Shown one piece after another: positions 1-3,000 of a DNA stretch of 7,323 bases. Each line of letters begins with the position of its first letter. Within the stretch, counting starts at the first letter, position 1. This DNA is from a virus (taxonomy: Duplodnaviria > Heunggongvirae > Uroviricota > Caudoviricetes). The stretch is from the IMG/VR virus record IMGVR_UViG_2671180429_000001, one strand, 5' to 3'. The position numbers are program-made.

Positions 1-3000
1 CAATGCGCTTACTGATGCGGAATTACGCCGTAAGGCCGCAGATGAGCTTGTCCATATGACTGCGAGAATTAACCGTGGTGAGGCGATCCCTGAACCAGTA
101 AAACAACTTCCTGTCATGGGCGGCAGACCTCTAAATCGTGCACAGGCTCTGGCGAAGATCGCAGAAATTAAAGCTAAGTTCGGACTGAAAGGAGCAAGTG
201 TATGACGGGCAAAGAGGCAATTATTCATTACCTCGGGACGCATAAGAACTTCTGTGCACAGGACGTTTCCGCGGTAACAGGCGCAACCGTAACCAGCATA
301 AATCAGGCTGCGGCTAAAATGGCGCGGGCAGGAATCCTGATCATTGATGGTAAGGTCTGGCGAACGGTGTATTACCGGTTTGCTACCAGGGAAGAACGGG
401 AAGGAACGGTGAGCACGAACCTGATTTTTAAGGAGTGTCGCCAGAGTGCAGCGATGAAACGGGTATTGGCGGTATATGGAGTTAAAAGATGACCATCTAC
501 ATCACTGAGCTAATAACAGGCCTGCTGGTAATCGCAGGCCTTTTTATTTGGGGGAGAGTAAATCGTGGCTGAGTTGATTTTCTCTGCATTGAGGCTTCTC
601 GGTGCTATGTGGATGGTGGCGACGTTCATTGTGGTTGCTGGCTGTTTTGTCCGGTTGGTAGGCGAAGGTAAAGACCTGGTGGGTGTGCTTTTCGGTAGCA
701 TTCTCCTGTGGGTGATTATCGGTGTTGCGCCTGTCGCTGTAGCAAAAATGGCGTGGCGTTTTGTGAGTTGAACTGAGGGTAAGTACCGATGGACGAATCA
801 AGAAAGCAGTTTGAAGAATGGTTTGAAAATTACACCGGATGTGATCCTAAAAATAAAATATACGCCAATATGGTTGAGATGTATTGGCAAGCGTGGCAGG
901 CATCGCGAGCAGCTTTTGAAATTGAGCTGCAAAAGCCAAAGAAAGGCCCACTTCCCGGTGATTATCACATTGGCTATGACACAGGTGCAGAATCACAATA
1001 CGAAAGCGATGTAGAGGCCATCCGCACTGCTGGAGTCAAAGTGAAGGAGTGAGTATGAGCGCATACGAAGAAATCATGTTAGCCCTGCGATTCTTTTTCG
1101 GTGTGGAAGAAGATGAAAACGTAAATGAGATTATCGGGCAAGACCATGACCAGATAGGGACTATTGCAGCTGCACTTGACGATTACAGGAGCGTAAATGG
1201 TGAGGAAACTAACGTTTGAACTAAGAAGCCCCATCCATCAGCAGAACGCCATTCAAGCTATCCAGCAAATTCTTCCAGACCCAACCAAACCAATCGTAGT
1301 AACCATTCAGGAACGCAACCGCAGCTTAGACCAAAACAGGAAGCTATGGGCCTGCTTAGGTGACGTCTCTCGTCAGGTTGAATGGCATGGTCGCTGGCTG
1401 GATGCAGAAAGCTGGAAGTGTGTGTTTACCGCAGCATTAAAGCAGCAGGACGTTGTTCCTAACCTTGCCGGGAATGGCTTTGTGGTAATAGGCCAGTCAA
1501 CCAGCAGGATGCGTGTAAGCGAATTTGCGGAGCTATTAGAGCTTATACAGGCATTCGGTACAGAGCGTGGCGTTAAGTGGTCAGACGAAGCTCGACTGGC
1601 TCTCGAATGGAAAGCGCGATGGGGAGATCGGGCAGCATGACTATCAAATCAAATACGCCAGCACACGACAAGGACTGCTGGCAAACGCCGCTTTGGCTTT
1701 TTGATGCACTGGATATTGAGTTTGGATTCTGGCTGGATTCGGCAGCGAGCGACAAAAATGCTCTGTGTGCTCACTGGCTAACTGAGGCCGACGACGCGCT
1801 AAATTCTGAGTGGATAAGCCACGGGGCAATCTGGAATAACCCACCGTACAGCAATATCAGGCCGTGGGTGGAAAAAGCCGCTGAGCAGTGCATACAACAG
1901 CGACAGACGGTAGTGATGCTTGTGCCAGAGGATATGTCAGTCGGATGGTTCAGCAAGGCTCTGGAGAGTGTCGACGAAGTTCGCATTATCACTGATGGAC
2001 GGATTAATTTTATCGAACCATCGACGGGGCTGGAGAAGAAGGGAAACAGCAAAGGCTCCATGCTGCTGATTTGGCGACCGTTCATCAGTCCTCGACGGAT
2101 GTTTACTACCGTATCCAAAGCGGCATTGATGGCGATCGGGCAGGGCGTCAGAAGGGCGGCATGAGGCGACAGCGAAGAAGTATCACCGACATCATCTGCG
2201 AAAACTGCAAATACCTTCCAACGAAACGCTCCAGAAATAAACGCAAGCCAATCCCAAAAGAATCTGACGTAAAAACCTTCAACTACACGGCTCATCTGTG
2301 GGATATCCGGTGGCTAAGACATCGTGCGAGGAAAACAAGGTGATTGACGCGATGATTTATTCGGGGCTATATTCCTCACGCGCCAGCAAAATCTGGCGTC
2401 GGGATTAGCACCCCGGATGTTTACGGAGCGATATGAGACGCGCCAGCGTCTTTTTTTCATATCGTTTGCACAGTCACATTCGCGATTTATGGCGGGCTGT
2501 GTGGGGGAGCCGAAAGGCTCGCCGGTTTCCGTACCCGGTAGTGCTAACCCCGCACAGTTCGCCACCACGATGATTAGCACCTGACGGTGGCGATAATGTC
2601 CAAATGTACGGAGTTATCGTTATGACCACTCAAATCTCTGTTGAAACTCTCTCCCCGATCACCCATAACCAGATTCCTGTTATTACCACCGAACTTTTGG
2701 CGCAGCTTTACGGCACTGAGCCGGTGCGTATTCGCCAGAATCATCATGAGAACAAAGTACGCTTCGTTGAAGGGAAACACTTTTTCAAAGTTGTTGGTAA
2801 TGACCTTAAAGAATTGCGGGTCGCTTTAAACTACTCACAAAATCCAGTTTCACCCAAAGCCCGCTCCCTCATCCTCTGGACAGAACGAGGCGCAGCACGC
2901 CACGCCAAAATGCTCGAAACCGATCAGGCATGGGATGTGTTCGAAAAACTGGAAGACTGCTATTTCAGCCAGTGCGAGAAAAATACTGGCAAACAAGAGA

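What the first reader, a model, noticed from the sequence alone, without database searches (positions are those of the whole stretch)
549..1219. Three-gene cassette of small unknown ORFs between ren and ninB, led by a two-TM membrane protein
The three small genes are tightly packed (68, 87 and 54 aa), each with a good Shine-Dalgarno. They sit directly after a terminator and read into ninB. None resembles a lambda nin gene that I know. Small membrane proteins in this position in lambdoid phages are often superinfection-exclusion, host-takeover or anti-defence factors, so this is the best candidate for uncharacterised biology in the window.
Basis: inference. Interest (0 to 1): 0.55.

Follow-up and report, generated by a model that had tools for sequence, protein, structure and literature searches.

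The report
Three shuffled accessory genes before ninB
Three small genes of unknown function really do sit between the tR2 terminator and ninB in this Shiga-toxin prophage, but they are independently shuffled members of the well-known non-essential "nin" gene pool of lambda-like phages, not a dedicated three-gene system.

Summary
The window is the Stx1a prophage of E. coli O103:H2 PV16-126. An intrinsic terminator, near-identical to the annotated tR2-position terminators of HK620 and P22, is followed by ORF1 (565-771, 68 aa, two hydrophobic helices), ORF2 (789-1052, 87 aa) and ORF3 (1055-1219, 54 aa, acidic). ORF3 overlaps ninB. All three are RefSeq "hypothetical proteins", belong to function-unknown PHROGs, and show dN/dS of about 0.2-0.45.

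The "cassette" reading does not hold. ORF1 occurs in 528 of 5426 complete E. coli genomes, ORF2 in 164 and ORF3 in 26. The whole block occurs in only 9. In 77 viral contigs carrying ORF1 and ninB, 20 have ORF1 alone and 2 have the trio. Lambda and P22 have an empty slot.

No promoter-like site was found, so the genes probably depend on read-through of tR2, which makes them delayed-early lytic genes rather than prophage-expressed exclusion genes. ORF1 is probably an N-in/C-in inner-membrane hairpin from a very narrow family. ORF2 belongs to a broad, uncharacterised phage family. ORF3 is a three-helix protein also found in virulent Klebsiella phages.

No link to any known function, defence or anti-defence family was found. 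This is ordinary but uncharacterised accessory biology.

The parts
202..492 (+). ren-like gene (96 aa). This is upstream context and not part of the block.
   Evidence: phrog_142 'Ren-like exclusion protein', E=1.2e-40. RefSeq CDS WP_000145906.1.
518..549 (+). tR2-like intrinsic terminator: hairpin AGGCCTGC-loop-GCAGGCCT followed by a T-run.
   Evidence: Terminator scan. Near-identical to the sequence between ren and ninB in lambda and between gene 12 and ninB in P22. The equivalent P22 site is annotated as a terminator 'similar to phage lambda' and the equivalent HK620 site is annotated tR2. The hairpin lies within 90 nt upstream of ORF1 in 71 of 77 viral contigs.
553..567 (+). ORF1 translation-initiation region GGAGAGTAAATCGTG. 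It is the left copy of an imperfect 15-nt direct repeat that bounds the block.
   Evidence: Read. In lambda and P22 the same GGGGGAGAG Shine-Dalgarno sequence serves ninB.
565..771 (+). ORF1: 68 aa, pI 9.3, two hydrophobic helices, GTG start. The predicted topology is an N-in/C-in inner-membrane hairpin.
   Evidence: phrog_1165, E=1.7e-35. dN/dS 0.2-0.45. Family alignment with invariant W16, W49, G53 and W64.
789..1052 (+). ORF2: 87 aa, soluble, pI 4.9, alpha/beta. It is a mosaic member of the family marked PF26207 ('phiTE_015 family' in PGAP names).
   Evidence: phrog_343, E=2e-28. All listed homologues carry PF26207. AlphaFold2 pLDDT 80, order H-H-E-H-E. Mosaic alignment.
1055..1219 (+). ORF3: 54 aa, acidic (pI 4.05, 13 D/E against 2 K/R), predicted three-helix protein. 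Its last codons overlap the ninB start.
   Evidence: phrog_1603, E=2.2e-32. Only 23 homologue clusters. AlphaFold2 pLDDT 78. Homologues in BTP1 and in Klebsiella Stephanstirmvirinae phages.
1188..1202 (+). ninB translation-initiation region GGAGCGTAAATGGTG. It is the right copy of the 15-nt direct repeat and matches the left copy at 13 of 15 positions.
   Evidence: Read.
1200..1640 (+). ninB (Orf recombination mediator), the conserved downstream anchor of the slot.
   Evidence: Pfam NinB, E=2.4e-54. RefSeq CDS.

Best explanation
The three ORFs are real, protein-coding and individually exchangeable accessory genes. They occupy the variable slot between the tR2 terminator and ninB at the start of the nin region of a lambdoid Stx1a prophage. 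They have no promoter-like site of their own and lie directly behind an intrinsic terminator in the early-right operon. They are therefore most likely made only when N-type antitermination reads through tR2, that is, as delayed-early genes of lytic growth. Translation is tightly chained: the gaps are 17 nt and 2 nt, and ORF3 overlaps ninB by 20 nt. This timing is inferred from the sequence and from established lambda regulation; it has not been measured.

ORF1 probably inserts into the inner membrane as an N-in/C-in helical hairpin. Its second helix and short basic tail (W49-x3-G53-x2-P56...K61-x2-W64) are under purifying selection. My best guess for how it works is that it binds and modulates a conserved inner-membrane partner in Escherichia or Salmonella during lytic growth. 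Candidate outcomes are blocking entry of a second phage's DNA, blunting a membrane-based abortive-infection effector, or adjusting envelope physiology.

ORF2 is a soluble alpha/beta protein of a broad phage family. ORF3 is an acidic three-helix protein. Both are most likely small protein-binding modulators that act independently of ORF1.

Rough probabilities:
- Real genes in a shuffled accessory slot: about 0.9.
- Expression that depends on terminator read-through: about 0.7.
- ORF1 acts through a specific membrane partner rather than by non-specific membrane damage: about 0.5.
- Any one named target: no more than 0.1.
For: Identity and annotation: the window is 100% identical to NZ_AP038987.1, and RefSeq calls all three as CDS.

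Coding signal: ORF1 has dN/dS of 0.2-0.45 and no indels across the alleles used for that estimate, with dS up to about 2.4. Against the Salmonella allele, codons 47-68 give dS about 1 and dN about 0.18. ORF2 and ORF3 give about 0.3. All three match PHROGs.

Slot structure: tR2 and its Shine-Dalgarno sequence are near-identical to lambda and P22, where they lead straight into ninB. The block is therefore an insertion between that module and ninB.

Independence: 528, 164 and 26 genomes carry ORF1, ORF2 and ORF3, but only 9 carry the whole block. Of 77 IMG/VR loci, 20 have ORF1 running directly into ninB, 42 add an ORF2-family gene only, 6 add an ORF2-family gene and an FlbD-like gene, and 2 add an ORF2-family gene and ORF3. 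The sliding identity profile shows mosaic joints inside and between the ORFs.

Regulation: no sigma-70-like site was found in 1-2300, and one terminator lies at 518-541.

Topology: two hydrophobic segments are present. The tails are net positive and the loop is neutral or acidic in most of the 10 aligned family members.

Lytic role rather than a lysogeny-only role: ORF3 and ORF2 relatives occur in virulent Klebsiella, Salmonella, Pseudomonas and Aeromonas phages.

Literature: nin genes are non-essential, tightly packed, drawn from a pool of 30-50 genes, and mostly of unknown function (PMC5630979; PMC8022706).
Against: There are no expression data. The promoter scan is a crude consensus search and could miss a weak or non-sigma-70 promoter, so expression from the prophage is not excluded.

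The topology rests on hydropathy and the positive-inside rule only. No dedicated predictor and no structure model was run for ORF1.

Part of the conservation of ORF1's second helix among E. coli alleles reflects recently shared DNA (dS 0.14 in codons 47-68) rather than selection.

No partner, phenotype or homologue of known function was found for any of the three genes, so the mechanistic part is inference by analogy.
Confidence: 0.55

Rival explanations
1. One reading: the three genes act together as one module for superinfection exclusion, host takeover or anti-defence, led by the membrane protein.
For: The genes are tightly packed and translationally chained. In every lambdoid locus examined, ORF3 sits directly after an ORF2-family gene and before ninB: the window, L002-L004, BTP1, S137 and two IMG/VR loci. 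BTP1 also opens its slot with a membrane-helix protein, DUF4752.
Against: The distributions are uncoupled: 528, 164 and 26 genomes, with the whole block in 9. ORF1 stands alone before ninB in 20 of 77 loci. An ORF2-family gene occurs without ORF3 in 48 of 50 loci. ORF3 relatives in Klebsiella phages lie between nrdD and nrdG with neither partner. The adjacency of ORF2 and ORF3 can be explained by shared boundary sequences that serve as recombination joints.
Confidence: 0.12
2. ORF1 is a holin-like or type-I-toxin-like small membrane protein. It depolarises or permeabilises the inner membrane non-specifically, for example to arrest the host or to tune lysis timing.
For: The protein is 68 aa with two transmembrane helices and a probable N-in/C-in topology. 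From my own knowledge, not tested here, this is the format of class II holins and pinholins (phage 21 S68) and of GhoT. The weak GTG start is conserved in all E. coli alleles examined, which would fit restrained expression of a toxic product.
Against: The gene lies in the early operon, about 4 kb upstream of Q and of the late region, and not in a lysis cassette. The C-terminal tail is only 8 residues and carries 2 positive charges, so it is not the charged cytoplasmic domain typical of holins. There is no dual-start motif. Specific residues in helix 2 are invariant down to about 30% identity, which fits a defined contact better than bulk membrane damage.
Confidence: 0.15
3. The genes are prophage-expressed 'morons' that protect the lysogen, through defence or exclusion expressed from the repressed prophage.
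For: Many prophage accessory genes protect the lysogen, and ren immediately upstream belongs to a PHROG named for an exclusion protein.
Against: No promoter-like site was found, and a terminator stands in front of the genes rather than behind them. There are no PADLOC hits. ORF2 and ORF3 relatives occur in virulent phages, which have no lysogenic state.
Confidence: 0.07
4. Some or all of the ORFs are non-functional filler. On this view their conserved ends exist only because they are recombination linkers between nin modules.
For: The conserved N- and C-termini of ORF2 (MDESRKQFEEW... and ...IRAAGIKVKE) and the C-terminus shared by unrelated slot-3 genes (NEETNV) coincide with blocks of near-identical DNA. 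The H-19B copy of ORF1 carries an in-frame stop. Lambda and P22 do without all three genes.
Against: dN/dS is well below 1 for all three genes. ORF1 keeps its length and hydrophobic pattern across alleles with saturated dS. The ORF3 core is 47-59% identical in distant virulent phages. ORF2 has a confident predicted fold that recurs in diverse phages.
Confidence: 0.05

Closest known systems
The nin-region accessory gene pool of lambdoid phages (lambda ninB-ninI; P22 ninA, B, D, E, X, F, G, Y, H, Z)
   Same: Same operon and same position, between the replication genes and Q. The genes are tightly packed and overlapping, dispensable in lambda and P22, and mosaic in their exchange (PMC5630979; PMC8022706).
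   Different: None of the three ORFs matches any named Nin family in Pfam or NCBIfam. They fill a slot that is empty in lambda and P22. The 'NinA' of P22, HK620 and SPN9CC is a different ORF of 26-27 aa that lies over the terminator.
T4 Imm (a small early membrane protein that blocks DNA entry by superinfecting phage). This comparison is from my own knowledge.
   Same: It is a small protein with two hydrophobic helices, made early in lytic infection, and non-essential. It is a plausible functional analogue of ORF1.
   Different: No sequence comparison was run. ORF1's family is confined to Escherichia and Salmonella lambdoid phages. No exclusion phenotype is known.
Class II holins and pinholins (for example phage 21 S68). 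This comparison is from my own knowledge.
   Same: About 68 aa, with two transmembrane helices and a probable N-in/C-in topology.
   Different: ORF1 is in the early operon and not in a lysis cassette. It has no charged C-terminal domain and no dual-start motif.
P22 EaD and the small ORFs of the ea / exo-xis region
   Same: The phage Gally record labels its ORF2 relative 'similar to P22 EaD'. The last ~36 residues align, giving a shared ...G-[YF]-x-x-G...AGIKVK[EG] ending. Both are non-essential early genes of unknown function.
   Different: The similarity is limited to that C-terminal stretch, and the hhalign probability is only 4%. EaD is 197 aa and lies in the early-left operon.
Small acidic phage inhibitors of host proteins (Ocr, Ral, anti-CRISPR-type proteins). 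This comparison is from my own knowledge.
   Same: ORF3 is very small, strongly acidic and helical, and is shared by temperate and virulent phages.
   Different: ORF3 has no sequence or fold match to any solved structure, anti-CRISPRs included. No target is known.

Membership tests
Named lambda/P22 Nin protein families (NinB, C, D, E, F, G, H, X, Y, Z) | Significant match to the family's Pfam or NCBIfam model | tested here: not met
   ORF1-3 have no Nin hits in Pfam or NCBIfam. As a positive control, the neighbouring gene hits Pfam NinB at E=2.4e-54.
P22/HK620 'NinA' | A 26-27-aa ORF that overlaps the end of the helicase gene and spans the tR2 terminator | tested here: not met
   In HK620, SPN9CC, HK630 and P22, NinA is annotated over the terminator. 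The ORF1 homologue is a separate ORF just downstream, and it is left unannotated in HK620.
PHROG 1165 / 343 / 1603 (function unknown) | Full-length HMM match | tested here: met
   E=1.7e-35, 2e-28 and 2.2e-32 respectively.
Pfam PF26207 ('phiTE_015 family protein' in PGAP naming) | Match to the PF26207 model | tested here: inconclusive
   All 120 listed ORF2 homologues carry precomputed PF26207. A 94%-identical protein is named phiTE_015 family by PGAP. The model is absent from the local Pfam and NCBIfam copies, so ORF2 itself could not be scored. The link between the PGAP name and PF26207 is my inference.
VOC / glyoxalase superfamily (some database entries call ORF2 homologues 'VOC family protein') | Pfam match above the gathering score | tested here: not met
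   Glyoxalase_4 scores 21.4 bits against a cut-off of 27. Only 5 of 26 family members hit it at all.
VOC / glyoxalase superfamily | Paired beta-alpha-beta-beta-beta modules in the fold | tested here: not met
Class II holin / pinholin | Two transmembrane helices with N-in/C-in topology | tested here: inconclusive
   Two hydrophobic segments and the charge distribution fit this topology. No experimental data and no dedicated predictor were available.
Class II holin / pinholin | Encoded in the late lysis cassette next to an endolysin, with a charged C-terminal cytoplasmic domain and often a dual start | tested here: not met
   The gene lies in the early-right operon upstream of Q. The C-terminal tail is 8 residues with 2 basic residues. 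There is a single GTG start.
Known anti-phage defence systems (PADLOC-DB v2) | HMM match to a defence-system component | tested here: not met
   No hits at E<=1 for any of the three proteins.
Prophage 'moron' (autonomously expressed lysogenic-conversion gene) | Own promoter upstream and a terminator downstream, with expression in the lysogen | tested here: inconclusive
   No sigma-70-like promoter was found in 1-2300, and the only terminator is upstream of the genes. The scan is consensus-only, and expression was not measured.
Toxin-antitoxin pair (ORF2 with ORF3) | Obligate co-occurrence of the two genes | tested here: not met
   An ORF2-family gene occurs without ORF3 in 48 of 50 IMG/VR loci. 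An ORF3 relative occurs without ORF2 in Klebsiella phage FBKp34.
P22 EaD | Full-length homology | tested here: not met
   BLASTP aligns only AG[VI]KVK. hhalign aligns 36 C-terminal columns at 4% probability.
T4 Imm-type superinfection immunity | Sequence homology to Imm, and a block of DNA injection by a superinfecting phage | not tested
   This is an analogy from memory only. No Imm sequence was fetched, and the phenotype needs experiments.

The most novel reading that the evidence does not exclude
ORF1 is a dedicated transmembrane counter-defence protein. It would be a delayed-early hairpin whose invariant second helix plugs or sequesters a membrane-embedded abortive-infection or exclusion effector of Escherichia/Salmonella or of resident prophages, for example a RexB-, SieB- or Zorya-type membrane component. 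It would then complement the neighbouring ren gene, which in lambda confers resistance to Rex exclusion. ORF3 would be a separate acidic inhibitor of a soluble host factor, shared with virulent Klebsiella phages.
Probability: 0.1. Interest if true: 0.65.

Novelty: new member of a known kind. Interest (0 to 1): 0.3.

Why it matters
ORF1-type genes are carried by about a tenth of complete E. coli genomes. They are the first gene after tR2 in many Stx, HK022-like and P22-like phages, yet no function is recorded for them. If ORF1, ORF2 or ORF3 proved to be an exclusion or counter-defence factor, it would add to the list of phage-host conflict genes in Shiga-toxin phages and would help explain why this slot turns over so fast. 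As it stands, the result mainly tidies the annotation. The region is a mosaic accessory slot and not a new system, and the "VOC family" label on ORF2 relatives is unsupported.

Tried and rejected
The following searches found nothing or ruled an idea out:
- Pfam, NCBIfam and PADLOC scans of the three proteins gave nothing above threshold. The only Pfam hit, Glyoxalase_4 for ORF2, is below its cut-off.
- Profile searches of all three families against PDB sequences gave nothing below E=0.5.
- ORF3 model against PDB by Foldseek: nothing below E=4.
- ORF2 model against BFVD: only uncharacterised phage proteins.
- The afdb50 library was unavailable.
- ORF1 is not NinA. That idea was rejected after reading the HK620, SPN9CC, HK630 and P22 annotations.
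- ORF2 is not P22 EaD beyond a similar C-terminal ending.
- A one-genome-per-species scan for ORF1 gave 5 loci: Escherichia plus MAGs labelled as other taxa, which are probably binning contaminants. This limited the taxonomic survey.
- The exhaustive profile search for ORF1 found only 17 clusters, and none was longer than 109 aa, so no informative domain fusions emerged.
- Rfam and tRNA scans found no RNA family inside 549-1219.
- Literature searches for the Pfam and PGAP names, nin-region anti-defence, small membrane proteins of lambdoid phages, and accessory-gene screens returned nothing on these proteins.
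Full report
**Source and layout**

The 781-bp stretch around the finding is 100% identical to the chromosome of E. coli O103:H2 strain PV16-126 (NZ_AP038987.1), inside an Stx1a prophage. RefSeq annotates this gene order:
- O, P, then a 96-aa ren-like gene (window 202-492);
- three "hypothetical proteins" of 68, 87 and 54 aa;
- ninB, dam, ninE, ant, a KilAC antirepressor, ninG, ninH, Q, stxA1a and stxB1a.

**Observation check**

- A single intrinsic-terminator-like site lies at 518-541 and is followed by TTTTATTT. No sigma-70-like promoter was found in 1-2300.
- Each ORF has a purine-rich Shine-Dalgarno sequence 5-10 nt upstream.
- ORF1 starts with GTG. It has GRAVY 1.55 and two hydrophobic stretches.
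- ORF2 is hydrophilic, with pI 4.9.
- ORF3 is strongly acidic, with pI 4.05 and 13 D/E against 2 K/R.
- ORF3 overlaps the ninB start by 20 nt (GTG 1200, the RefSeq start, which gives the 146-aa lambda-length NinB) or by 23 nt (ATG 1197).

The description is therefore accurate.

**Are they genes?**

For ORF1, homologues from eight loci have exactly 68 codons and no indels. Pairwise dN/dS is 0.2-0.45 wherever there is enough divergence. There are two deep allele classes:
- Class A: the window, HK022 and Stx2 phages.
- Class B: HK620, H-19B, some E. coli prophages and Salmonella P22-like phages.

Between the classes, codons 2-46 have saturated synonymous divergence (dS about 2.4) with dN about 0.6. 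Codons 47-68 are nearly identical at the DNA level among E. coli alleles (dS 0.14), which marks a mosaic joint inside the gene. Against the Salmonella allele, the same 3' segment gives dS about 1 and dN about 0.18, so it is also under purifying selection.

ORF3 against BTP1 gives dS 0.26 and dN 0.076. ORF2 against a same-allele homologue gives dS 0.083 and dN 0.024. All three hit function-unknown PHROGs over their full length. I regard all three as real genes.

**The slot**

The segment from the 3' end of ren through the hairpin, the T-run and GGGGGAGAG is almost base-for-base the same as in lambda and P22. The equivalent sites are annotated as tR2 in HK620 and as a lambda-like terminator in P22. 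In lambda and P22 that Shine-Dalgarno sequence leads directly into ninB. In the window it leads into ORF1.

The 635-nt block 565-1199 is therefore an insertion between the tR2 module and ninB. It is bounded by an imperfect 15-nt direct repeat:
- GGAGAGTAAATCGTG at 553-567;
- GGAGCGTAAATGGTG at 1188-1202.

Each copy ends in a GTG start codon.

The "NinA" of P22, HK620, HK630 and SPN9CC is a 26-27-aa ORF lying over the terminator. It is not ORF1. The ORF1 homologue of HK620 is present but unannotated.

**Not a cassette**

At megablast sensitivity, in 5426 complete E. coli genomes:

| Sequence | Genomes with a match |
|---|---|
| ORF1 | 528 (415 at ≥80% of the query) |
| ORF2 | 164 (27 at ≥80% of the query) |
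| ORF3 | 26 |
| Whole 781-bp region, at least 80% covered | 9 |

In 77 IMG/VR contigs that carry ORF1 and a downstream ninB:

| Content between ORF1 and ninB | Loci |
|---|---|
| Nothing (ORF1 runs straight into ninB) | 20 |
| An ORF2-family gene only | 42 |
| An ORF2-family gene plus an FlbD-like gene | 6 |
| An ORF2-family gene plus ORF3 | 2 |
| Other content | 7 |

The upstream neighbour is a DnaB-type helicase gene in 45 loci and ren in 21. The tR2 hairpin lies within 90 nt of ORF1 in 71 of the 77.

A sliding identity profile shows sharp switches between about 100% and about 40% identity inside ORF1, inside ORF2 and at the ORF2/ORF3 boundary. ORF2 relatives share the ends MDESRKQFEEW...WQASRAAIEI and ...IRAAGIKVKE but swap their middles and acquire N-terminal extensions. 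Unrelated genes in the third position share the ending NEETNV because they overlap ninB.

This is the classic nin-region mosaic. The literature describes that region as a pool of 30-50 non-essential, tightly packed genes of which each phage carries about ten (PMC5630979; PMC8022706). The exact trio does look common in raw assemblies: the three exact proteins are seen on about 460-560 contigs each. I suspect, but did not check, that this reflects heavy sequencing of a few STEC lineages.

**ORF1**

The family is very narrow:
- 199 clusters at 90% identity, almost all from Escherichia or Salmonella;
- 107 phage records;
- 5 loci in a one-genome-per-species scan;
- only 17 clusters at 50% identity among 1.84 billion representatives.

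Members that are full-length or nearly so and only 29-35% identical (63-68 aa) keep W16, W49, G53 and W64 invariant. K/R10, V32, P56, V57 and K61 are nearly invariant.

In most of the 10 aligned members the tails are net positive (+1 at the N-terminus, +2 at the C-terminus) and the loop is neutral or acidic. By the positive-inside rule this fits an N-in/C-in hairpin with a short periplasmic turn (xVNxGKDP).

There are no hits in Pfam, NCBIfam, PADLOC or PDB. Source names are "hypothetical protein" or "membrane protein". The H-19B copy has an in-frame TGA.

**ORF2**

All listed homologues carry precomputed PF26207. PGAP names a 94%-identical protein "phiTE_015 family protein". The local Pfam and NCBIfam copies lack that model.

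Relatives are found in 221 phage records, including Klebsiella, Proteus, Cronobacter, Hafnia and Jersey-like Salmonella phages. The fold recurs in uncharacterised proteins of Salmonella, Pseudomonas, Aeromonas and Rheinheimera phages. The annotation "similar to P22 EaD" holds only for the last ~36 residues, and weakly.

**ORF3**

The family has only 23 clusters. The core is YEEIMLALRFFF-x-VEEDENVNEIIGQDHDPIGTIAAALDDYR. The model predicts three helices with pLDDT 78. No solved structure resembles it.

In lambdoid phages it always lies just before ninB and just after an ORF2-family gene: the window, L002-L004, BTP1, S137 and two IMG/VR loci. A 47-59% identical core also occurs in about 140-kb virulent Klebsiella phages. 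In FBKp34 it forms the C-terminal part of an 83-aa protein encoded between nrdD and nrdG.

**Interpretation**

What is shown:
- The genes are real.
- They sit in a hot-swapping slot.
- They have independent distributions.
- A terminator lies upstream and no promoter-like site is present.
- ORF1 has a hydrophobic hairpin architecture.
- None of the three has a known-function homologue.

What is inferred:
- The genes are delayed-early and depend on N-mediated read-through of tR2.
- ORF1 works by a specific intramembrane contact through its conserved second helix.
- ORF2 and ORF3 are small protein-binding modulators.
- Their benefit is conditional on host or competitor, since lambda and P22 lack them.

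Prophage-expressed exclusion is disfavoured by the regulatory context.

**Verdict**

This is an accurate observation of ordinary, already-annotated but functionally uncharacterised nin-region accessory genes. Interest is modest. The best follow-up target is ORF1, because it is prevalent and has a sharply conserved helix.

Noticed in passing
window 553-567 and 1188-1202: An imperfect 15-nt direct repeat (GGAGAGTAAATCGTG / GGAGCGTAAATGGTG, 13 of 15 identical) bounds the ORF1-3 block. Each copy ends in a GTG start codon (ORF1 and ninB). This could be a duplicated translation-initiation region that serves as a recombination joint for gain or loss of the block.
   Followed up: partly
window 2367-2569 (+): Rfam matches above gathering score to c4-a1b1 (2367-2419), isrK (2380-2456) and C4 antisense RNA (2485-2569), just upstream of the ant gene (2604-3302). 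Together they look like a P1-type c4/ant immunity module embedded in the nin region.
   Followed up: no
window 6964-7238: Downstream of stxB1 there are Rfam matches to the sRNAs STnc100 (6964-7177, +, 190.7 bits) and AgvB, the anti-GcvB sRNA (7179-7238, -, 56.6 bits, just above its cut-off of 56).
   Followed up: no
L012 (phage H-19B, AF034975) about 1501-1704: The ORF1 homologue of the classical Stx1 phage H-19B carries an in-frame TGA (GVGW becomes GV*W) and is unannotated. It is either a pseudogene or an old sequencing error.
   Followed up: no
L009 (HK620, AF335538) 1201-1404: A full-length class-B ORF1 homologue is present in HK620 between 'ninA'/tR2 and ninB, but it is not annotated in the GenBank record.
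   Followed up: partly
L019 (Klebsiella phage vB_KpM_FBKp34) 2405-2656: An 83-aa protein whose C-terminal 50 residues are an ORF3-like domain lies between the anaerobic ribonucleotide reductase genes nrdD and nrdG. A NinX (DUF2591) gene lies about 1 kb downstream. nin-type small genes are therefore shared with virulent jumbo-ish phages.
   Followed up: partly
L018 (Salmonella phage BTP1) 361-1689: The BTP1 slot between the helicase gene and ninB holds five small genes: an 89-aa ORF, a DUF4752 protein with an N-terminal hydrophobic helix, a basic 69-aa ORF, an ORF2-family gene (102 aa) and an ORF3 homologue (64 aa). A membrane-helix protein (DUF4752) again sits early in the slot, but it is unrelated to ORF1.
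   Followed up: partly
L008 (phage phiv205-1) 1797-2213; P0188, P0239: Some ORF2-family members (138 aa, also Sf6 gene 48-like) carry an N-terminal extension, MSKCQKCNNTGMCDSGG...CDC. It looks like a small Cys-rich zinc-ribbon or DnaJ-like motif.
   Followed up: no
L014, L016, L017 (MAGs labelled Cellvibrionaceae, Bacillota, Collinsella): ORF1 homologues at 86-90% identity appear on short contigs of metagenome-assembled genomes assigned to unrelated taxa. These are most likely E. coli phage contigs that were mis-binned.
   Followed up: no
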